Shown: piece by piece, positions 2,431 to 60,429 of the stretch
How the letters are laid out: each line of letters opens with the position of its first letter
How positions within the stretch are numbered: position 1 is the stretch's first letter
Assembly (NCBI GenBank): GCA_022897995.1
Contig: GCA_022897995.1_4763.1
Strand: one strand, 5' to 3'
Length of the DNA stretch: 64,000 bases
DNA from: a phage
Notes under the pieces: model-generated
The model's input: only the letters and a program-made list of their open reading frames with translations
Database searches by the model: none
What the model was told of the DNA's origin: nothing
Position numbers and translations under genes: made by a program

Positions 2431-2628
2431 ATGAATGAGATTGTACGATTGATCAAAGAAGCACCAATCGAGATGTATTTTCTGGCTTTGGTTGCAACAA
2501 TGGTCTATCAGCTAGTCGCATGTCATGTGTGGAAGTCAGAAAATGCGTTTATCCGGTTTTTTGGTACTGTCATGATCCAGTTTCCGGTACTGATCACTAT
2601 CCTGTTAATCGTCAATGGGGCGAAGTGA
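2431..2628 (+). CDS. small hydrophobic protein (hypothetical)
   Basis: ORF-track ORF, 65 aa, mostly hydrophobic; GAGGTG RBS near 2421-2426; I could not reconcile the first codons with my reading of the sequence. Confidence 0.3.
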   Translation: MNEIVRLIKEAPIEMYFLALVATMVYQLVACHVWKSENAFIRFFGTVMIQFPVLITILLIVNGAK

Positions 2629-2903
2629 TGGACAAGAAAACAGCGTTAATGGTTTACATGCTACGTGAAGACCACGGTCTTAATTTTGTTGATATTGCTA
2701 AAAAGATTGGCGGGATCAGCGGACAAGATGCGGCTAAGGCATGGTTGATGGTAAAAGATGCACGCGAGGCTTACGCCAACCGTGAAAAGGTTGTTTATCG
2801 TAAACACCACATCAACAAAAAATTTAAAAATAAAGTTCAAAAACGTGTTGACAAGCCAAATAACACTGTTATAATGGACGCATTCAAACGGGCAATGTCC
2901 TAA
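2628..2903 (+). CDS. hypothetical basic protein (91 aa)
   Basis: ATG at 2628 overlapping upstream stop (TGATG); ORF track extends to 2520; lysine-rich C-terminus. Confidence 0.4.
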   Translation: MDKKTALMVYMLREDHGLNFVDIAKKIGGISGQDAAKAWLMVKDAREAYANREKVVYRKHHINKKFKNKVQKRVDKPNNTVIMDAFKRAMS

Positions 2904-2949
2904 TTTGTAATTAATATTCTGAATAACTAATCAATAGAGGTGACTAATT

Positions 2950-3387
2950 ATGAAATTCCGTAAAAACCACGTAGCAATGAAAAAAGCAATGTTCGAAGCA
3001 TTCAAAGCAGTTGATCAGGGCGGTGTTACTCTGATTGAGCAAATTAATGTTGATGTTTGGCAATCTCCGGCGATCACTTGCTCACGTCTGGCGACGGCTG
3101 GTCTTCTGAACGTTCACAGCTCTACAGCATACGACGAAGCATTGCAAGTTATTAAGGCTTTCGCTGGAGACGTTACCAGCAAGTGGGTCTATGAGAATAA
3201 AGGTGAAATTGCGGTTGCTCACGTAGGCAACAATATCCAGATGGAAATCAAGATTAAGGAAGGGTCTAAACGCAATCAGATGCTTGTTCGCTTCCAGCCA
3301 TACAAAACTAACGTAGTGCCGGATGATCTGATCATCTCTAAGAGTAATGTTACCATTCGCCGAAATCAGATCGTTATCAACAAATAA
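2950..3387 (+). CDS. hypothetical protein (145 aa)
   Basis: AGAGGTG RBS 8 nt upstream of ATG 2950; terminator follows. Confidence 0.55.
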   Translation: MKFRKNHVAMKKAMFEAFKAVDQGGVTLIEQINVDVWQSPAITCSRLATAGLLNVHSSTAYDEALQVIKAFAGDVTSKWVYENKGEIAVAHVGNNIQMEIKIKEGSKRNQMLVRFQPYKTNVVPDDLIISKSNVTIRRNQIVINK

Positions 3388-44550: not shown

Positions 44551-44811
44551 ATGTCCAATCAGCATGAACAAATGATTAATGTCCTGAAAGTACGTCTGTT
44601 TGACACTCAAGAAAAGGCCGCATTCTTAGAAGGCCAACTGAAAGATCGTGAGCGTGTATTAATGGAACTGGTACGCATTCTTGGTATTCAGCCAGACGAA
44701 AACGGCACTGTTTCCCTTGATGCTATTGTCGAAGAAGTAAAAGCACTTCTCCCTAAAGACGAAGCAGCGGAAGACGCTAAAGAGGAAGTAGAACTGATCA
44801 CGGAGGCTTGA
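44551..44811 (+). CDS. 57A: tail fiber assembly chaperone gp57A
   Basis: 86 aa coiled-coil; AGGAG RBS then ATG 44551 (ORF track starts GTG 44545); T4 position between 1 and 57B. Confidence 0.55.
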   Translation: MSNQHEQMINVLKVRLFDTQEKAAFLEGQLKDRERVLMELVRILGIQPDENGTVSLDAIVEEVKALLPKDEAAEDAKEEVELITEA

Positions 44812-44813
44812 TT

Positions 44814-45278
44814 ATGACCCCGTTTCGAGAATCCGTTAAAGGTACATATGCGGCGGTTAAATTCACTGAGGATACACTAGACCGCATTGAAAAATTGCAG
44901 GAGTTCTACGATCTGCCTAATGCCGTTCCTCGTGATAAACTGCATAGCACTATCTTATATTCTCGTGTTTATGTTCCGTTTATCCCAGAAGAAGGGGAGA
45001 AGTTCTTAGGCTCTCTATGCCATCTGAAAGTGTTTGAAACTCAATCCGGTACTAATGCGCTTGTGTTGGCATTTGAAAGCGACTACATGCAATTCAGACA
45101 CGATATCGGCACTGCTTTAGGTGCGACGTGGGATTATCCTGAATATGTACCGCATATCACGCTTTCTTATGATGTTGGTGCGCGTAAATTTGGCACTGAC
45201 CTAGAGTTCGATTTAGAGATTGTCCGATCTCATGAGTATGTCGAAGATCTAGACCTGGAGTGGACGACCAAACTGTAA
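44814..45278 (+). CDS. 57B: 2H phosphoesterase, 57B/Acb1-like (anti-CBASS nuclease candidate)
   Basis: 154 aa from ATG 44814 (GGAGG RBS); two H-x-T/S-x motifs (HSTILYS and HITLSY); T4 57B position. Confidence 0.6.
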   Translation: MTPFRESVKGTYAAVKFTEDTLDRIEKLQEFYDLPNAVPRDKLHSTILYSRVYVPFIPEEGEKFLGSLCHLKVFETQSGTNALVLAFESDYMQFRHDIGTALGATWDYPEYVPHITLSYDVGARKFGTDLEFDLEIVRSHEYVEDLDLEWTTKL

Positions 45279-46000: not shown

Positions 46001-46204
46001 ATGGAATTGGATATGGTTAAAGCAAAATTTATGGGTAAGGATAAGAAAGGTAAAACATTTGTTATTAATAGAACATTGTTTCGATCTGACCTTAAGTGGG
46101 TAACACAACAATTTGCGGAAGTCAACGAGGCGGTAGTGACCTGCTTTGTTGGTGATAAGAAAGTTTTTGAAATTGACCGTCGTGGGGTGTCTAATGATCG
46201 CTAA
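46001..46204 (+). CDS. hypothetical protein (67 aa)
   Basis: AAGGTG RBS then ATG 46001. Confidence 0.5.
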   Translation: MELDMVKAKFMGKDKKGKTFVINRTLFRSDLKWVTQQFAEVNEAVVTCFVGDKKVFEIDRRGVSNDR

Positions 46205-52232: not shown

Positions 52233-52649
52233 ATGGAATTTAAAGCAATTCAAATCATGAAAGGTGAGCATAAAGGTACTATTATCGGTGGATATTTCGC
52301 CCCTATGATTCTGGTATCCGAACCTAAAGCACTGATCGGCGCTAAAGTAATTGTTAGTAAAACTTTCGCAGAAGACCATGTGATCACCGCAGAAGACGTC
52401 GATTCGCTGGCACTGCACACAACTAGCTTCCGTCCTGTTATTGTAGATAATGGTGCTCCTGTTGTCGAGGGAGGCCAGCATTTGAATGTTAACGTATTGT
52501 TACGAGAAATGTTGCTGGACGCGGTTGAACATCCTGAGAAGTACCCGCAGCTTACAATTCGCGTTTCTGGTTACGCAGTGCGCTTCAATAGTCTGACTCC
52601 AGACCAGCAGCGTGACGTTATCGCGCGTACCTTTACCGAATCTCTCTAA
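52233..52649 (+). CDS. grcA: autonomous glycyl radical cofactor (GrcA/YfiD-like; T4 Y06I-like)
   Basis: 138 aa; C-terminal glycyl-radical signature ..[33 protein letters not shown]; AGAGGTG RBS. Confidence 0.75.
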
Positions 52650-52659
52650 TTTTTCATCA

Positions 52660-52688
52660 AGCCAATCCGAAAAGGGTTGGCTTTTTCG
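52660..52688 (+). terminator. intrinsic terminator
   Basis: AGCCAATCC-GAAAA-GGGTTGGCT hairpin plus T5. Confidence 0.65.
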
Positions 52689-52735
52689 TTTTATGATGAT
52701 ATGATGCAATCTCTTAATCAACTGAGGGTTTAATT

Positions 52736-53434
52736 ATGCATACAATGGTTAAAATGGTCTTCGGATCTCACTTATACGGCCTTGATACTGAAAATTCCGA
52801 TAAAGATTATCGAGGTATCTTTGTTCCGACTGCGAAAGAAATTATTTTAGGATCGATGAAAGAACACTATGACCAAAGCACTAGCGGTCAAGGTATCAAG
52901 AACACCAAAGACGATATTGATGTTAATATGTTCAGTCTAAAAAGGTTTATCAATCTGGCATGTAAAGGTGATATTGGCGCTATTGACATGGTGCACGCGC
53001 CTAGTAACATGTTGATTGAATCCTCCAGAGAATGGGAATACATCCGAACACATCGCGATAAATTCTATCATGTTGGTATGTGGGGTTGTTCTGGCTATCT
53101 CAAAAAGCAGGTAGCCAAATCTGAAAAGTATTTCAGTAACTGGAAAGATCTTTCTCATGCTCTGCGTGTTGGTTATCAGCTACTTGAAATCTATCAGACA
53201 GGTGATCTACAATTCCCGCTCGCGCGACGTTCTTCTATTTTAGCGTGTAAGTTAGGAGAAAGAACCTTTGATAATGTGCGGGAAGAATTGAAAGATCTCT
53301 ACGAGCGTGTTAAACTCGCGCGTGAAGAGGCAAAGAAAAACGGTATGCCGGAAGAACCAGATGTTGACTTTTGGAAAGATTTATTAGAATATATTCATCT
53401 GACCGTTGTTCTGGAACACTATACCCGTGGTTAG
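52736..53434 (+). CDS. predicted nucleotidyltransferase (Pol-beta superfamily)
   Basis: 232 aa; N-terminal NTase signature FGSHLYGLDTENSDKDYRG; GAGGG RBS. Confidence 0.55.
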   Translation: MHTMVKMVFGSHLYGLDTENSDKDYRGIFVPTAKEIILGSMKEHYDQSTSGQGIKNTKDDIDVNMFSLKRFINLACKGDIGAIDMVHAPSNMLIESSREWEYIRTHRDKFYHVGMWGCSGYLKKQVAKSEKYFSNWKDLSHALRVGYQLLEIYQTGDLQFPLARRSSILACKLGERTFDNVREELKDLYERVKLAREEAKKNGMPEEPDVDFWKDLLEYIHLTVVLEHYTRG

Positions 53435-53455: not shown

Positions 53456-53650
53456 ATGCAAGTTTATACCAATAGCAATAAAGGCAATGATATCACACCG
53501 GGAAAGATGTATGATTTTACCCCGGCACGAGACGACGAACATCCACCGACTATCGGGTATATTGAAGATGATGCGGGGTTTCGTATTACGATCCTTCTTG
53601 ATGGTGGATGTTCTCATCTTCGCGGTGATCGTTGGGAGTTAGTACCATGA
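53456..53650 (+). CDS. small protein, CSHL-motif paralog 1 (64 aa)
   Basis: AGGAG RBS; motif GYIEDDAGFRITILLDGGCSHLRGDRWELV shared with the next two ORFs. Confidence 0.5.
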   Translation: MQVYTNSNKGNDITPGKMYDFTPARDDEHPPTIGYIEDDAGFRITILLDGGCSHLRGDRWELVP

Positions 53651-53892
53651 TGTATGTGATGACACCTTATAGTAACCGCAAGTATATTACACCAAATGCA
53701 CTGTATGAATATACACCACATGAAAGATTTGCGAATAGTGGTTATATCCGTGATGATAAGGGACACCAGATTTTTATTTGTCTTAAAAATTGTGCACACT
53801 TAGACGGTCGAACATGGACACTGGTCGAAGAACCAAAACAACCTGAGAATAAAGGTCTTTGGAATGTGCTAAAAAAATTCTTGAAAAAGTAG
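53647..53892 (+). CDS. small protein, CSHL-motif paralog 2 (81 aa)
   Basis: ATG 53647 overlapping upstream stop (ATGA); motif GYIRDDKGHQIFICLKNCAHLDGRTWTLV. Confidence 0.5.
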   Translation: MMYVMTPYSNRKYITPNALYEYTPHERFANSGYIRDDKGHQIFICLKNCAHLDGRTWTLVEEPKQPENKGLWNVLKKFLKK

Positions 53893-53949: not shown

Positions 53950-54288
53950 ATGAGTGTTAAAGAAGTATTTGTTTATACTGACTATGACAGGTGCGCCTAT
54001 CTCACTGCTGGAAAACTTTACCGTTGTGAGATTATTCATGGTACGCTAGGTCGAATTATGTGCGATCCGATTACAAAATTGTGGAAAAACAATCCTAGTG
54101 AGCGAGAAACTATTATTAACCTAGATTCAGACGGTTGTTCACATTTGGACTATAGAAAATGGCATATCGTGACACATGATGCTTATGGTATTCATCTTGC
54201 TACTAAAGAATTGACTATTGACAAGTTCAAGTTTAAAGAAATCCCGTTTGTATACTGGCTTCGCAATTTGTTTAAGAAAGGAGAATAA
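53950..54288 (+). CDS. CSHL-motif paralog 3 with N-terminal extension (112 aa)
   Basis: AAGGAG RBS; motif ..IINLDSDGCSHLDYRKWHIV. Confidence 0.5.
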   Translation: MSVKEVFVYTDYDRCAYLTAGKLYRCEIIHGTLGRIMCDPITKLWKNNPSERETIINLDSDGCSHLDYRKWHIVTHDAYGIHLATKELTIDKFKFKEIPFVYWLRNLFKKGE

Positions 54289-54289
54289 A

Positions 54290-54712
54290 ATGGAAACAAT
54301 TAATGTACACGTTCGCCGTAGCAAGCTGCGCAGATTCTTCGAAGCTGAAATGCGTAAGACTAACGCACAAATCAAAGAAAAGTGCTTGAATAATGGTTAC
54401 GGTGAGTATATTTTCATTCGCTTTAGTCCGCATATGATCGACCGTCTAACCGACCGCCATATCGATGAACATAAGACAATGGAACTATTCAATAAGGTAG
54501 AAACTCGTTTGCCGGAGATATTCGACTTCCTGAAAATGGAAGACCGACCTAATCGATTAGAAATTACTGACGGTAACATGTGGATCGGGATGACAGTAGA
54601 TCTAATCGAAGACGGTAAACCGTATCACGGTCTATGCTGCCGAATGATTATAGAGAATCCAAAACGACTGGCGGGTAAAATGTCGGCTGTTGTTTTGAAA
54701 GTGGACCAATAA
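54290..54712 (+). CDS. hypothetical protein (140 aa)
   Basis: AGGAGAA RBS then ATG 54290 (ORF track starts 54218). Confidence 0.5.
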   Translation: METINVHVRRSKLRRFFEAEMRKTNAQIKEKCLNNGYGEYIFIRFSPHMIDRLTDRHIDEHKTMELFNKVETRLPEIFDFLKMEDRPNRLEITDGNMWIGMTVDLIEDGKPYHGLCCRMIIENPKRLAGKMSAVVLKVDQ

Positions 54713-54797: not shown

Positions 54798-55388
54798 ATG
54801 TTAAAAGTTCTAAAAGCGATAGTATTGAGTCTGTCACTAGCCGTTGGTGCTACACACGCATCGACTAGCGCACCGATCAAAAAAGCGCCGATAGACAACT
54901 TTACAGCACACCAACTAGATAATTTACATTTCGCCTATCAATACGGCGAGCAATTCGAGAAAAGCGGTAAGTTGAAAAAGGACCATCCGAATATTCGCTA
55001 TAACGGAAAGGGTTTAGGTCACATCCTGGCGGGTATCGCATGGCAAGAATCAAGCGCGGGTGCAAACTTAGCACCAAAGAAAAATCATCATGCTTATGGA
55101 TTATTTCAAAATTACCTTAAAACGGTGAAAGCGAAAAATGCAAAGCGCGGTGTTAAAATGAGTGATCGCCAGACTATCAACTTTATCATGAATCGCGAGG
55201 TTTCTGCATTCTACGCGATGGATGAGTTAGCATACTGGCTGGATGTTCGAAACGGTAATATCCGACTCGCGCTGGCTTCTTACAATGCTGGATGGAACTA
55301 TAAAGCCGGTTTAGGTTATGCTGATGACGTATTAAAAAAAGCTAACCATCTAAAGAGTAAAGGCATTCTTAAAACTAAACGCTATTGA
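54798..55388 (+). CDS. secreted lytic transglycosylase-like (SLT/lysozyme-like) protein
   Basis: 196 aa; N-terminal signal peptide MLKVLKAIVLSLSLAVGATHA; catalytic-region motif GIAWQESS and ..SYNAGW..; AGGAG RBS. Confidence 0.55.
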   Translation: MLKVLKAIVLSLSLAVGATHASTSAPIKKAPIDNFTAHQLDNLHFAYQYGEQFEKSGKLKKDHPNIRYNGKGLGHILAGIAWQESSAGANLAPKKNHHAYGLFQNYLKTVKAKNAKRGVKMSDRQTINFIMNREVSAFYAMDELAYWLDVRNGNIRLALASYNAGWNYKAGLGYADDVLKKANHLKSKGILKTKRY

Positions 55389-55395
55389 GGAATAT

Positions 55396-55755
55396 ATGAA
55401 AAAGTTGACAATAATTGCTATGATTGCTATGATGTTCTCTGCTGGTGCGCTTGCTAGTAATGAGCGCCCTTATCCAAAGTTCGAATACAAAGGATTTGAG
55501 ATCAACAAAAAGATCATTAAAACCTTCTGTGATGATGATAACATGTGTAGCGATTTTATCGCACTTGAACTCGACGAAGCCTATAAACAAGGCCGAGATG
55601 AAAAACGAAAAAATCGAGCATGGGATCTGAGTATTGCCAGCTTTGCTAAAACAAAACGCAACCTGTGTGATACTGCCCCTGATAAGCAATTATGCTTTGC
55701 TTATCGCGACACACTGTTAAGCCGTTTTATGGCTGGGTTGTCTTCCCGTGACTAA
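55396..55755 (+). CDS. secreted hypothetical protein with signal peptide (119 aa)
   Basis: GAGGAA RBS; signal peptide MKKLTIIAMIAMMFSAGALA; four Cys. Confidence 0.5.
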   Translation: MKKLTIIAMIAMMFSAGALASNERPYPKFEYKGFEINKKIIKTFCDDDNMCSDFIALELDEAYKQGRDEKRKNRAWDLSIASFAKTKRNLCDTAPDKQLCFAYRDTLLSRFMAGLSSRD

Positions 55756-55770
55756 TGAGAGGTTTATATT

Positions 55771-56226
55771 ATGATTATTGATACTGTAAAGGGCGATCTC
55801 ATCGCCCTGTTTAAACAAGGAAACGGTCATTTAATTCATGGTTGTAATTGTTTTCATACTATGGGCGCTGGTATTGCTGCGAAGATCGCGAAAGAGTTCC
55901 CGCAAGCATTGGCTACTGACAAAAAGACACCGAGAGGAACGGCTAGTAAGCTAGGCGAGTTCAATGTTTGGCATCATACCGTTAATGGTTATAACTGGAT
56001 GGGTATTAATCTTTATACGCAATTCCGCCCAGGACCAAATGCTGAATATTCCGCTATCATCCGTGGATTCGAACAACTTAACTTCGCATTTGAAGGTACT
56101 GTTAAGCCGTTCTATATTCCTAAAATTGGTTGTGGGATTGGTGGCCTAGAATGGGAATGCGTAGAAGAAATCATTAATGATTTTACGCCGGATATCAATA
56201 TTGTGGTGGTGGAATATGACAAATAA
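55771..56226 (+). CDS. macro domain protein (ADP-ribose binding/processing)
   Basis: 151 aa; macro-like motifs LIHGCNCFHTMGAGIAAKI and IPKIGCGIGGLEWE; GAGAGG RBS. Confidence 0.55.
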   Translation: MIIDTVKGDLIALFKQGNGHLIHGCNCFHTMGAGIAAKIAKEFPQALATDKKTPRGTASKLGEFNVWHHTVNGYNWMGINLYTQFRPGPNAEYSAIIRGFEQLNFAFEGTVKPFYIPKIGCGIGGLEWECVEEIINDFTPDINIVVVEYDK

Positions 56227-56410
56227 AAATGATCTCTATTCCGGTGATTGGGTGAAACGTCAATCTGTAGAAAACGTAACTTGTTTTCGTTGTTTCACTG
56301 AATACAATATAAAAACCGCTCCTGTTAGTGTTCCAAAGACAGACGGGTATTATATTAAAGAACCGCATTGCCCTAAATGTAAATGTCGATTATATTGGAG
56401 TCATCTATGA
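56216..56410 (+). CDS. zinc-ribbon protein (64 aa)
   Basis: ATG 56216; CxxC..CPKC pairs (CFRCF.., CPKCKC). Confidence 0.45.
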   Translation: MTNKNDLYSGDWVKRQSVENVTCFRCFTEYNIKTAPVSVPKTDGYYIKEPHCPKCKCRLYWSHL

Positions 56411-56625
56411 AGAAGCCTAATACCGCTCACATGAAAGAAAACTGCCGATGTGTTAGATGTGGTTGGCCTATTATCTTCACTTGCTGTAACGACGACATGC
56501 AGCGTTTACCGTGGGGAATGTGGGATTGGTGGATGTATTGTAGCAATAAAGGATGCATCCACCACGAAGGCGAAGGAGTATTTCAGGAAACGCCTGATTG
56601 GGTGGAGGTGATAGAAAATGCTTGA
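56407..56625 (+). CDS. cysteine-rich protein (72 aa)
   Basis: GGAG RBS then ATG 56407; CRCVRCGW..CC..C..C. Confidence 0.45.
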   Translation: MKKPNTAHMKENCRCVRCGWPIIFTCCNDDMQRLPWGMWDWWMYCSNKGCIHHEGEGVFQETPDWVEVIENA

Positions 56626-56911
56626 GACTATCATTAACCTTGTTATGTGGACTTTTAATTTCGTTATTGTTATTGTGGCGGGTATTGAGATTGTCAAGCA
56701 ATATCTGATACAATCCAGAAATAAACATGTTGTAATTGATATGGACTCTCAAGGAAATAAGCTGATCCTGCTAGAAGACGGTCGGGAATATTGGGTAGGT
56801 TATCCAAAGACACTACGCGGATTTATCTTTGCTATGGGTGTTTGCTTCTTTTTCCTTTGTATCTGGGTTTATGTTGGTTTAGGTCTTGCTGGATTTTTGG
56901 AGATTAATTAA
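56618..56911 (+). CDS. small membrane protein (97 aa)
   Basis: GGAGGTG RBS; two hydrophobic segments. Confidence 0.5.
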   Translation: MLETIINLVMWTFNFVIVIVAGIEIVKQYLIQSRNKHVVIDMDSQGNKLILLEDGREYWVGYPKTLRGFIFAMGVCFFFLCIWVYVGLGLAGFLEIN

Positions 56912-57507
56912 TGGCACAACTATACTTCTACTATGCATCTATGAACGCTGGTAAGTCTACTTCCTTATTACAAAGTGCTTATAACTATACAGAACGTGAT
57001 ATGCGAGTATTAATTCTTAAACCAGCGATTGACAATCGAGATTCAGAAAGTGAAGTTGTTTCCCGAATTGGTCTAAGTGCTCCAGCGATCACATTCACTA
57101 AATCGGATGATCTTTTCGATTTGGTTTATCGTGAATCACTAGGTAAGCGTAGACCGGATCGCTGGCGTCCAGATGCTGTATTTGTAGATGAAGCCCAATT
57201 TATGACTAAAGAGCATGTTTTAGGCTTGTGTGCGCTTGTTGATGATGCAAATATCCCTGTACTGTGCTATGGCCTTCGCACCGACTTTCAGGGCAATCTA
57301 TTTGAAGGATCTGCGGCATTAATGGCATTTGCTGATAAACTGGTCGAAATGAAGGGTATTTGTCATTGTGGCAAGAAAGCGACTATGGTCCTTCGCGTAG
57401 ATAAAGATGGTAATGTTATTCGCGATGGTGCTCAAATAGAAGTTGGTGCAGAGGATAAATATGTTTCTGTGTGCCGTAAACATTTTATTGACGGTACTAC
57501 CAACTAA
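56911..57507 (+). CDS. tk: thymidine kinase
   Basis: 198 aa; P-loop SMNAGKSTSLL, ..VFVDEAQF.., zinc-binding CHCGKKAT..VCRKH; matches T4 tk. Confidence 0.9.
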   Translation: MAQLYFYYASMNAGKSTSLLQSAYNYTERDMRVLILKPAIDNRDSESEVVSRIGLSAPAITFTKSDDLFDLVYRESLGKRRPDRWRPDAVFVDEAQFMTKEHVLGLCALVDDANIPVLCYGLRTDFQGNLFEGSAALMAFADKLVEMKGICHCGKKATMVLRVDKDGNVIRDGAQIEVGAEDKYVSVCRKHFIDGTTN

Positions 57508-58284: not shown

Positions 58285-60429
58285 ATGCCAGAAGTAAAAG
58301 AAACTAGCATTAACACAACCATTTGGCTTCCTCATACTTTCGCGTGTTCAATTACTGCCGAATCGGAAGACCCATCTAAGACGAGGAAGGGTTATCATTG
58401 GAAAAAGGATGGTAAATTGGTCACTATGACCGATGCTCCGTCTTTTCCATTGAAGACAGTAAAGGAAGAGGACAAAACAGGCTGGTCTGTTAATGTTCGT
58501 GGGTATGCTCAAGATGACAATGAGTTTACTGGTGATTCTGTTGATATCGGTACGGAAAATTTCACCTTTGAATTGTTTGATAATCCATATGTAGAACATG
58601 TATACCCGCCACGGTCATTTATTGTTGGTGATGAAATAAAGGCAAAGATTGTTTTTCGTAGTCATATCCAGAATAATATTTCTGTAGACCTTTATTACAA
58701 CGATGGTTTGGTTGATTCCATTGATGGTGATCTAGGTTTAGACCATCGTGAATTTAAAATTGCAAAATTTGCGTGGCCTGAATTTTCCGGCACATATCGA
58801 ATGGAATTGAGCGATGAACATGATGATGTAAAATTTGTATATCCTTTCTTTGCTAGTATTGTCGAAAGTAAGGAAGTGTTTAACGTTCAAAAATACGCAC
58901 CTGCTTATTTTACCGTAGAAGATGATGCGCCGAATCAGGCCGAATATACTATTGTCCGCTACCGATTAGAGCGTGGTGATGGTACTTTGGTATATGAATC
59001 TAAAGATAAGACCTTGTATGTAACAAAACATGCTCAAGAGTCTGACGCCGGAGAATATGTTGCTTTTGTGCGTGCATATAAAGTTGTTAATGGTCCTGGG
59101 TCTGGTGAGCAATTCATCGATGGCGATAAACATCGCTTTACGGTAAATGTTAAGGAAAATGAGTTTTTCAGCCATGATTTTAGTGCTGTTGATTTTCGTT
59201 ATCCTTCTGGATCTACTGTAAACCTTGATATGCCAGTGATGCAAGCCGATAGCTCGTGGAACCGCCATTACGGTATGCTTAGTAACAACGTTTACTTTAC
59301 GTGGATGCTTGGCGGTAAGAAACTTCAAAGTAAAAAATATGGTGATGAAGGATACGACCGAATCACCCTATCTGGATTGCAATATGATAACAGCGTTGCG
59401 CTTCAATTGTTGGTTGCTCCTGCCAATCCAGCGGGTGAGCAGGTGATTCCTAACGGTCGTCCACTGTTTTATGACCGTCGTATGCTTGAGATTTATGATA
59501 AAGAGTATGATTATCGTAATATTGAAGTGGGTGAACCGATTGTTCTCAAGATCGTAGATCCTGAACCGCCAGCTAGTGATGATCCTGAACAAACACGAAC
59601 TTTGGTTATCACCAAAAACGACGTTAAAGTAACGGAACTACCGCTAGGCACTAAGGAATATAAGATCACTGACTCCGCTGACCGAGACCATAACGGAATC
59701 TGGGCGCATGAGTATCGTGATAGTCCGAGTAAAGATCCATTTAGTGCACATACCGATTTTGATATTGCTGGTCGCGCAACTTATCATGTTGAAGTTGTGC
59801 CAAATATGGAATTTGATGGTCCTCATCCGGTACAGGTGACGGAAGGGGATACGTTGACTATTGAAGCAACCATGCTTAAACCGCCAGCCTCATATGTTCC
59901 GACTTATGAGTTTAGCAAGAGTGGAGTTAAATTGCCAATTGCTGATGCAAGGACGCCGATTTATCGTAAGGCAAATGTTACCTTAGATGATGCTGGTGTT
60001 TATCGATTTGTTGCATTTGCTGATAAAAACAACAACGAAACTCTAGACCCAGGTGAGATCATCGGCTATACAAAATATGTTCAAGTTGTGGTTAATAAAC
60101 GTCCTGTTCGACCAGATGAACCTAAACCGGAAGTTAAAATTGTTACTCTGTTTAATGATTTTAGTAAAGGCCGATTTAGTCCGTGTCCGTATTGGGTAAT
60201 TGATGAACTTGTCGAACTGATGGAAGATCCGCATGGCTGGATGGGTAAACTTGAAGATGCTGTCTACTATGACTGGCAGATCACTATCTTTAATGAGTTC
60301 TTAAAAGGTAAAGATCTGTATCTTCAAGACTCCTGTAATGGTTATTGGGCTATTGTTCGTCAGAAAGACATGACAATCGAAACTGGTTACGGTCGATTTA
60401 AACACTATCACACAAATGGATTAGAGTAA
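58285..60429 (+). CDS. large Ig-like domain protein with Hoc-like C-terminus (candidate virion surface/decoration protein)
   Basis: 714 aa; AAGGGGG RBS; Ig-like signature DDAGVYRFVAF; C-terminal ..CPYWVIDEL..DSCNGYW.. weakly resembles the Hoc capsid-binding domain. Confidence 0.55.
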   Translation: MPEVKETSINTTIWLPHTFACSITAESEDPSKTRKGYHWKKDGKLVTMTDAPSFPLKTVKEEDKTGWSVNVRGYAQDDNEFTGDSVDIGTENFTFELFDNPYVEHVYPPRSFIVGDEIKAKIVFRSHIQNNISVDLYYNDGLVDSIDGDLGLDHREFKIAKFAWPEFSGTYRMELSDEHDDVKFVYPFFASIVESKEVFNVQKYAPAYFTVEDDAPNQAEYTIVRYRLERGDGTLVYESKDKTLYVTKHAQESDAGEYVAFVRAYKVVNGPGSGEQFIDGDKHRFTVNVKENEFFSHDFSAVDFRYPSGSTVNLDMPVMQADSSWNRHYGMLSNNVYFTWMLGGKKLQSKKYGDEGYDRITLSGLQYDNSVALQLLVAPANPAGEQVIPNGRPLFYDRRMLEIYDKEYDYRNIEVGEPIVLKIVDPEPPASDDPEQTRTLVITKNDVKVTELPLGTKEYKITDSADRDHNGIWAHEYRDSPSKDPFSAHTDFDIAGRATYHVEVVPNMEFDGPHPVQVTEGDTLTIEATMLKPPASYVPTYEFSKSGVKLPIADARTPIYRKANVTLDDAGVYRFVAFADKNNNETLDPGEIIGYTKYVQVVVNKRPVRPDEPKPEVKIVTLFNDFSKGRFSPCPYWVIDELVELMEDPHGWMGKLEDAVYYDWQITIFNEFLKGKDLYLQDSCNGYWAIVRQKDMTIETGYGRFKHYHTNGLE

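What the first reader, a model, noticed from the sequence alone, without database searches (positions are those of the whole stretch)
55771..56226. Macro domain protein in the early region, a candidate counter-defence factor
The 151-aa protein has the two glycine-rich motifs typical of macro domains (..LIHGCNCFHTMGAGIAAKI.. and ..IPKIGCGIGGLEWE..), which bind or hydrolyse ADP-ribose derivatives. In a lytic phage such a protein could reverse ADP-ribosylation of DNA or proteins (as DarG does against DarT) or intercept ADP-ribose-derived immune signals. It lies in a cluster with other candidate auxiliary genes (nucleotidyltransferase, GrcA, Acb1-like).
Basis: inference. Interest (0 to 1): 0.65.

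Follow-up and report, generated by a model that had tools for sequence, protein, structure and literature searches.

The report
Phage Tk.4/AdfM macrodomain, anti-DarTG2 enzyme

Summary

The window comes from a Krischvirus (RB49/JSE-like T4-type coliphage). The gene sits in the conserved block regB - vs.1 - vs - tk.4 - (three small genes) - tk - rI. It is the positional and sequence ortholog of T4 Tk.4 (42% identity, E 4e-45).

T4 tk.4 was renamed adfM in a November 2025 preprint. It was the only transposon hit depleted on DarTG2, and a clean knockout sensitised T4. An analogous PhiKZ macrodomain removes thymidine-linked ADP-ribose from DNA in vitro.

The most likely function is therefore enzymatic removal of DarT2-added ADP-ribose from phage ssDNA.

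One detail goes beyond the literature I read. The Tk.4 family carries Gln (Q84) where DarG and TARG1 have the catalytic Lys. This matches Streptomyces SCO6735, though the family lacks SCO6735's long loop and lysines.

Novelty is low: already known.

The parts
55771..56226 (+). tk.4 / adfM ortholog: a 151-aa stand-alone macrodomain protein (stop codon TAA at 56224..56226)
55757..55762 (+). Shine-Dalgarno-like GAGAGG, 8 nt upstream of the ATG
   Evidence: Read directly from the sequence.
55831..55887 (+). Loop 1 / first glycine-rich motif LIHGCNCFHTMGAGIAAKI (residues 21-39). Contains H23, G24 and N26 (equivalent to SCO6735 H24, V25, N27) and the MGAGIA phosphate-binding turn.
   Evidence: HMMER alignments to 5e3b, 5m3i and 6lfu and profile alignments. 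In the 99-sequence alignment G24 and N26 are invariant and H23 is present in 95/99.
56008..56025 (+). NLYTQF (residues 80-85). Q84 occupies the position of the catalytic Lys of DarG (K80) and TARG1 (K84), and of SCO6735 Gln85.
   Evidence: Alignments. Q84 is conserved in 98/99 family members, N80 and Y82 in 99/99. T4 Tk.4 has the same NLYTQF. The equivalence Q85 = K80 = K84 is stated in PMC9411070.
56116..56157 (+). Second glycine-rich (diphosphate-binding) loop IPKIGCGIGGLEWE (residues 116-129). G124 occupies the position of TARG1 Asp125 and Poa1p Phe152.
   Evidence: Alignments. P117, I119, G120 and G122 are invariant and G125 is present in 96/99.
55396..55755 (+). vs (valyl-tRNA synthetase modifier homolog), the immediately upstream gene and a synteny anchor
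   Evidence: PHROG 1256 at 1.8e-33. Same order as in JSE and T4.
56216..56410 (+). Downstream small zinc-binding-domain gene, overlapping the end of tk.4 by 11 nt (translational coupling). It corresponds positionally to the T4 tk.1-tk.3 block.
   Evidence: In-frame ATG at 56216. PHROG 4864. Pfam Phage_zn_bind_2 at 1e-23. JSE shows the same 11-nt overlap.
56911..57507 (+). tk (thymidine kinase), a synteny anchor
   Evidence: ORF listing. Matches the position of JSE and T4 tk in the annotated tables.

Best explanation
The gene is the Krischvirus ortholog of T4 tk.4, now called adfM (anti-DarT factor, macrodomain). It is transcribed with the surrounding block of rightward (+ strand) non-structural genes. 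It encodes a single-domain macrodomain ADP-ribosylglycohydrolase of the ALC1-like clade (TARG1, DarG, SCO6735, Poa1p). When the host DarTG2 toxin DarT2 attaches ADP-ribose to thymidines in single-stranded phage DNA and blocks replication, this enzyme binds the ADP-ribose and hydrolyses the thymidine-ribose bond, restoring a replicable template. The binding elements are the two glycine-rich loops (MGAGIA, residues 31-36; IGCGIGG, residues 119-125). The protein has no DarT-binding C-terminal domain, so it acts as an orphan eraser enzyme rather than by sequestering the toxin. Its active site is of the Gln type (N26 and Q84, as N27 and Q85 in SCO6735), not the Lys type of DarG, TARG1 and PhiKZ AdfM. 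What is shown here: the ORF, fold, clade, orthology, synteny and conserved residues. What is taken from the literature: the T4 knockout phenotype, PhiKZ AdfM activity in vitro and the SCO6735 mechanism. What is inferred: that this ortholog has the same substrate and the same role.
Against: No experiment exists on this protein or on any Krischvirus. It is only 42% identical to T4 Tk.4 and 27% to PhiKZ AdfM. The T4 evidence is genetic and comes from a preprint; biochemical activity of a Tk.4-type protein on T-ADPr DNA has not been shown in what I read. It lacks the DNA-positioning lysines (K34, K89) and the long mobile loop of SCO6735 (A33 at the K34 position; the loop is 5 residues shorter in the alignments). 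It has Gly where SCO6735 has Val25. The SCO6735 mechanism therefore cannot simply be transferred. The fold is equally close to Poa1p, a phosphatase.
Confidence: 0.72

Rival explanations
1. The main substrate is not DNA but ADP-ribosylated protein or RNA. The enzyme would reverse modification by other host ADP-ribosyltransferase toxins or defences (for example RNA-targeting ones), or tune the phage's own ADP-ribosyltransferases, as TARG1 and SCO6735 do on proteins.
For: TARG1 is among the top structural and sequence matches. SCO6735, which shares the Gln-type site, also hydrolyses protein-linked ADP-ribose. Johannesman et al. speculate that some counter-defences may act on an RNA ADP-ribosylating system.
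Against: TARG1's catalytic dyad is absent: Q84 replaces K84 and G124 replaces D125. In T4 the only reported conditional phenotype of tk.4 is on DarTG2. The two roles are not mutually exclusive.
Confidence: 0.13
2. It metabolises or sequesters free ADP-ribose derivatives. One version is the historical annotation 'A1pp phosphatase' (ADP-ribose-1''-phosphate phosphatase, like yeast Poa1p) or an O-acetyl-ADP-ribose deacetylase. Another, the first reader's second idea, is that it destroys or sponges ADP-ribose-based immune signals such as Thoeris gcADPR or His-ADPR.
Against: Poa1p F152 aligns to G124 here. The 'phosphatase' labels are propagated annotation, not tests. No phage macrodomain has been reported as an anti-Thoeris factor in the papers I retrieved. 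The T4 genetics point to DarTG2.
Confidence: 0.1
3. It is a catalytically inactive ADP-ribose reader, or a decaying gene with no current function.
For: The canonical catalytic Lys is missing.
Against: dN/dS is 0.16. The Asn/Gln pair and both glycine loops are invariant or nearly so across 99 homologs. The Gln-type site is catalytically competent in SCO6735. T4 Tk.4, which has the same residues, gives a phenotype.
Confidence: 0.03

Closest known systems
T4 Tk.4 = AdfM (anti-DarT factor macrodomain; bioRxiv 10.1101/2025.11.20.689424)
   Same: Full-length ortholog (42% identity, E 4e-45). Same slot between vs and tk. Same size, a single macrodomain. Same HGCNCFHTMG, NLYTQF and IG(C/A)GIG motifs.
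   Different: 58% of residues differ. The small genes between tk.4 and tk are different. No experimental data exist for the Krischvirus allele.
PhiKZ gp104 AdfM (Morgan et al. 2026, Cell Rep, PMC13309987)
   Same: Stand-alone phage macrodomain that counters DarTG2 by removing thymidine-linked ADP-ribose from DNA. Homologous fold (hhalign probability 97%).
   Different: Only 27% identity. PhiKZ has the DarG-like FPTK lysine (K78), where this protein has Q84. PhiKZ has an insertion before the second Gly loop and is imported into the phage nucleus.
DarG antitoxin macrodomain (M. tuberculosis 5M3I, T. aquaticus 5M3E)
   Different: No C-terminal DarT-binding domain: 151 aa against about 340, with only profile positions 2-141 of 338 matched and 51.7 bits against a cutoff of 250. 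The catalytic Lys80 is replaced by Gln. There is no adjacent darT.
Streptomyces coelicolor SCO6735 (5E3B) and Bacteroides BT1257 (2FG1/2AFC)
   Same: Best profile-sequence matches (1.6e-15 and 5.6e-15). Stand-alone macrodomains. The H-x-C-N motif and the catalytic-position Gln are shared. SCO6735 cleaves T-ADPr DNA and neutralises DarT.
   Different: The mobile loop is shorter by 5 residues, so the SCO6735 K89 position has no aligned counterpart. A33 occupies the K34 position and Gly24 the Val25 position.
Human TARG1/OARD1 (4J5S)
   Same: Top Foldseek hit (TM 0.76-0.77, 27% identity). TARG1 also removes T-ADPr from DNA, according to PMC9411070.
   Different: The Lys84/Asp125 dyad is absent: Q84 and G124.
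Yeast Poa1p (6LFQ), ADP-ribose-1''-phosphate phosphatase
   Different: Poa1p F152 corresponds to G124. Poa1p is about 25 residues longer. There is no evidence for a phosphatase role in phage.

Membership tests
Macro domain (Pfam PF01661) | Profile score above the curated gathering threshold | tested here: met
   27.4 bits against 22, residues 22-135 matched to profile positions 1-118/118.
Macro domain (Pfam PF01661) | Three-layer alpha/beta/alpha macro fold | tested here: met
Macro domain (Pfam PF01661) | Two glycine-rich loops that contact the ADP-ribose diphosphate | tested here: met
   MGAGIA (31-36) and IGCGIGG (119-125) align with the corresponding loops of SCO6735, DarG, TARG1 and Poa1p. 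G34, G120 and G122 are invariant in 99 homologs.
Tk.4 / AdfM family of T4-type phages | Full-length sequence homology to T4 Tk.4, and the only such gene in the region | tested here: met
   42% identity, E 4e-45, residues 1-150 against 1-152. Unique tblastn hit in the window.
Tk.4 / AdfM family of T4-type phages | Conserved position between vs and tk in the regB-vs-tk-rI block | tested here: met
   T4 and JSE annotation tables. PHROG assignment of the window neighbours.
Tk.4 / AdfM family of T4-type phages | Protects the phage against DarTG2 | not testable with these tools
   Shown for T4 only. Needs plaque assays.
Tk.4 / AdfM family of T4-type phages | Removes ADP-ribose from thymidine in ssDNA | not testable with these tools
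   Shown in vitro for PhiKZ AdfM and SCO6735. In the papers read here it is not shown for any Tk.4-type protein.
DarG antitoxin (NCBIfam NF048014 equivalog) | Equivalog score at or above the cutoff, with the two-domain architecture (macro plus DarT-binding C-terminal domain) | tested here: not met
   51.7 bits against a cutoff of 250. Only profile positions 2-141/338 are matched and the protein is 151 aa. PADLOC DarG positions 3-141/329.
DarG antitoxin (NCBIfam NF048014 equivalog) | Catalytic lysine (K80) | tested here: not met
   Q84 aligns with the first K of the DarG motif PTKK. It is Gln in 98/99 family members.
DarG antitoxin (NCBIfam NF048014 equivalog) | Encoded next to its toxin darT | tested here: not met
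   The neighbours are vs and small zinc-binding proteins.
SCO6735-type (Gln-type) ALC1-like macrodomains | Gln at the DarG K80 / TARG1 K84 position, held by the conserved Asn | tested here: met
   N26 and Q84 align to SCO6735 N27 and Q85. The feature is defined in PMC9411070.
SCO6735-type (Gln-type) ALC1-like macrodomains | Val/Ile25, the extended mobile loop, and Lys34/Lys89 for DNA positioning | tested here: not met
   G24 at the Val25 position and A33 at the Lys34 position. There is a 5-residue gap where the SCO6735 loop GMKTG lies.
Poa1p-like ADP-ribose-1''-phosphate phosphatases | Residues studied by mutation in Poa1p structures (H23, S30, F152) | tested here: inconclusive
   H23 aligns to H23, S30 to T30 and F152 to G124 (alignment; numbering offset verified because the F152A chain 6lfu shows Ala at that position). 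Two of the three are similar. Activity could not be tested.

The most novel reading that the evidence does not exclude
The T4-type AdfM (Tk.4) lineage may be a mechanistically distinct class of phage DNA de-ADP-ribosylases. It has a SCO6735-like Asn/Gln, lysine-independent active site on a minimal DarG/TARG1-length scaffold, and appears to have been recruited independently of the Lys-type PhiKZ AdfM. It may also have a wider substrate range, such as protein- or RNA-linked ADP-ribose or Thoeris His-ADPR/gcADPR. In that case one small enzyme would blunt several NAD-derived defences.
Probability: 0.2. Interest if true: 0.5.

Novelty: already known. Interest (0 to 1): 0.2.

Why it matters
DarTG systems stop phage replication by ADP-ribosylating DNA, so erasers such as AdfM determine whether T4-type phages, including therapy candidates, can grow on DarTG2-carrying strains. 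For this window the result is mostly confirmatory. The gene has been labelled Tk.4 or 'A1pp phosphatase' in genome annotations of T4-type phages (T4, JSE), and its T4 ortholog now has an assigned anti-defence role. The only added value is the residue-level observation that the Tk.4 lineage is Gln-type rather than DarG-like Lys-type, which gives concrete mutants (N26A, Q84A, Q84K) for biochemical work.

Tried and rejected
- Single-sequence AlphaFold gave an unusable model (pLDDT 40.7). It was replaced by the 99-sequence MSA run.
- A MAFFT alignment of reference sequences placed the central NMIGQH of SCO6735 and BT1257 out of register. I relied instead on the HMMER pairwise and profile alignments and on the published structural equivalence.
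- hhalign against PhiKZ gp104 is off by one in the same loop.
- A search for a T4 MotA-type middle promoter (TGCTTNA, 11-13 nt, TANNNT) found nothing near the gene, and the two matches in the whole window are no more than chance expectation.
- The sigma-70 and terminator scans give only consensus-level candidates: a promoter-like site at 55405..55433 inside vs, and a weak hairpin at 55720..55734. I do not build on them.
- Literature searches for Poa1p and for other uses of 'tk.4' added nothing relevant.
- The ICP1 AdfB paper concerns a non-enzymatic antitoxin mimic and is not a relative of this protein.
- Filing the protein as DarG itself was rejected on architecture, score, catalytic residue and context.
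- One bacterial homolog (Pelagimonas, P0079) lies among housekeeping genes with no darT nearby. This is a single example and I draw no general conclusion from it.

Full report
**Observation.**
- A GAGAGG Shine-Dalgarno element lies 8 nt upstream of the ATG.
- The stop codon of the upstream gene (55753..55755) is 15 nt before the ATG.
- The next gene starts at an in-frame ATG at 56216 and overlaps the end of this ORF by 11 nt. This is the tight, translationally coupled packing typical of T4-type early regions.
- The ORF is a maintained gene. Against the JSE ortholog, dS is 0.80, dN is 0.13 and dN/dS is 0.16.

**Which genome this is.**
- The DNA is 97.5% identical to Krischvirus LF73P4 and about 82% identical to 58 other RB49/JSE-like coliphages.
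- In JSE the orthologous gene is annotated 'tk.4: phosphatase; contains A1pp phosphatase motif'.
- The window reproduces the JSE and T4 order, as judged from the annotated tables and PHROG/Pfam assignments of the window ORFs:
  - vs.6 (GrcA-like, 52233..52649)
  - nrdC.11 nucleotidyltransferase (52736..53434)
  - three small paralogs
  - regB (54290..54712)
  - vs.1 (54798..55388)
  - vs (55396..55755)
  - tk.4 (55771..56226)
  - three small genes
  - tk (56911..57507)
  - rI and rI.-1
- Acb1 (57B, 44808..45278) and dmd (46001..46204) lie further upstream on the same strand.
GrcA and the nucleotidyltransferase are 3-3.5 kb away, and Acb1 is 10.5 kb away.

**What the protein is.**
- Pfam Macro scores above its gathering threshold over the whole profile.
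- PHROG 335 matches at 1e-61.
- The DarG models of NCBIfam and PADLOC match, but only over their N-terminal macro part.
- A single-sequence AlphaFold run was useless. With a 99-sequence alignment of database homologs the model has pLDDT 97.1 and pTM 0.91.
- Foldseek agrees, with TM 0.76-0.79 to TARG1 and DarG.
- A family profile searched against PDB sequences ranks BT1257, SCO6735, TARG1, DarG and Poa1p between 1.6e-15 and 1.2e-12.
- The protein therefore belongs to the ALC1-like (TARG1/DarG/SCO6735) and Poa1p-like branch of macrodomains.

**Orthology to a characterised gene.**
- The protein aligns end to end with T4 Tk.4 (42% identity, 66% positives, E 4e-45).
- It is the only macrodomain in the window.
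- It occupies the same slot as T4 tk.4.

**What the literature reports.**
- T4 tk.4 was the single significant hit when a T4 transposon library was passaged on a DarTG2 host. A clean knockout sensitised T4 to DarTG2. The authors renamed the gene adfM and proposed enzymatic removal of ADP-ribose from DNA (bioRxiv 10.1101/2025.11.20.689424).
- This filled a gap noted earlier: T4 lacking adfA and adfN (gp30.3) was still DarTG2-resistant (PMC11825919).
- Independently, the PhiKZ macrodomain gp104, also named AdfM, removes DarT2-added ADP-ribose from a TNTC oligonucleotide in vitro and protects chimalliviruses from DarTG2 (PMC13309987).

**Mechanism at residue level.** HMMER alignments give these equivalences:

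| Window residue | Equivalent in reference proteins |
|---|---|
| H23-G24-C25-N26 | SCO6735 H24-V25-C26-N27; Poa1p H23 at the His |
| Q84, in NLYTQF | SCO6735 Q85; DarG K80; TARG1 K84 |
| G124 | TARG1 D125; Poa1p F152 |

- I checked the Poa1p numbering against the mutant chains: the F152A chain shows Ala at the aligned position.
- In 99 homologs, N26 is invariant, Q84 is present in 98/99, G24 in 99/99 and H23 in 95/99. T4 Tk.4 has the same NLYTQF.
- PMC9411070 shows that SCO6735 lacks the DarG/TARG1 lysine yet cleaves thymidine-linked ADP-ribose efficiently and rescues cells from DarT. Q85A abolishes its activity and N27S nearly does. The paper also states that Gln at this position distinguishes SCO6735/ALC1 homologs from DarG/TARG1 homologs.
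- The Tk.4 lineage is thus Gln-type, whereas PhiKZ AdfM is Lys-type (FPTK, K78; 27% identity to the window protein).
- The Tk.4 proteins nevertheless lack three SCO6735 features: the 5-residue-longer mobile loop, Lys34/Lys89 and Val25. The SCO6735 mechanism is an analogy, not a demonstrated identity.

**Membership.**
- The protein is a macrodomain and a member of the Tk.4/AdfM family by sequence and synteny.
- It is not a DarG. It has no DarT-binding domain, scores far below the equivalog cutoff, has no catalytic Lys and has no adjacent darT.
- It works like the DarG macrodomain but as an orphan eraser.

**Rival explanations.**
- A protein- or RNA-directed hydrolase role, and a small-molecule role (Appr-1''-p phosphatase, OAADPr deacetylase, Thoeris signal interception), cannot be excluded computationally and need not be exclusive of the main explanation.
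- They rest only on fold resemblance and inherited annotation. The only genetic phenotype in the family points to DarTG2.

**Verdict.** However, the gene is the already annotated tk.4, and its T4 ortholog has a published (preprint) anti-DarTG2 role, so novelty and interest are low. The modest new point is the Gln-type active site of the T4-type AdfM lineage.

Noticed in passing
window 55771..56226 compared with L004 (Shigella phage CM1, Vequintavirus) 2501..2953: The Krischvirus Tk.4 is closer to macrodomain proteins of Vequintavirus phages (66-68% identity: CM1, Bas59 EduardKellenberger) than to Tk.4 of other Straboviridae (42-50%: T4, Dhakavirus, Mosigvirus-like). The Vequintavirus gene sits in a different gene context. 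This suggests exchange of this counter-defence gene between phage groups that share hosts.
   Followed up: partly
window 53456..53650, 53632..53892, 53950..54288 (+): Three tandem small paralogous genes (PHROG 6261/15978, function unknown) lie between nrdC.11 and regB. They share a C-terminal motif of the type C-x-HL-x(3-4)-W-x-(L/I)V. JSE has three unnamed ORFs in the same place.
   Followed up: partly
window 55396..55755 (+) and T4 vs (L001 4887..5234, -): The 'valyl-tRNA synthetase modifier' Vs has a signal-peptide-like N-terminus (MKKLTIIAMIAMMFSAGALA) in both this phage and T4, and both have several cysteines. This is odd for a protein said to bind a cytoplasmic synthetase. The neighbouring Vs.1 has a similar N-terminus and an SLT transglycosylase domain.
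   Followed up: partly
window 58285..60429 (+): A 714-aa ORF directly after rI.-1, with only a weak Hoc-like/Ig-like C-terminal match (PHROG 1149 at 2e-9; Pfam Ig_3 below cutoff). JSE has several small ORFs and a short 'tail fiber protein' at this position, so this is a variable insertion.
   Followed up: no
window 52649..52736: JSE carries a homing endonuclease gene between vs.6 and nrdC.11. This phage has only an 86-nt spacer there, containing a terminator-like hairpin at 52659..52683.
   Followed up: no
window 56216..56410 and 56383..56625 (+): Two consecutive small genes downstream of tk.4 each encode a 'phage zinc binding domain' (Pfam PF23903 and PF23895). They occupy the slot of the T4 tk.1-tk.3 genes, and their function is unknown.
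   Followed up: no
window 44808..45278 and 46001..46204 (+): Other known counter-defence genes lie on the same strand upstream: Acb1 (57B; Pfam Acb1 at 1.5e-51, anti-CBASS) and Dmd (antitoxin against RnlA/LsoA).
   Followed up: partly
window 55405..55433 (+): The best sigma-70-like match in the 6.5-kb region (TTGACA, 17 nt, TG-TATGAT; 11 of 12) lies just inside the 5' end of vs, 340 nt upstream of tk.4. It could be an internal early promoter or a chance match.
   Followed up: no
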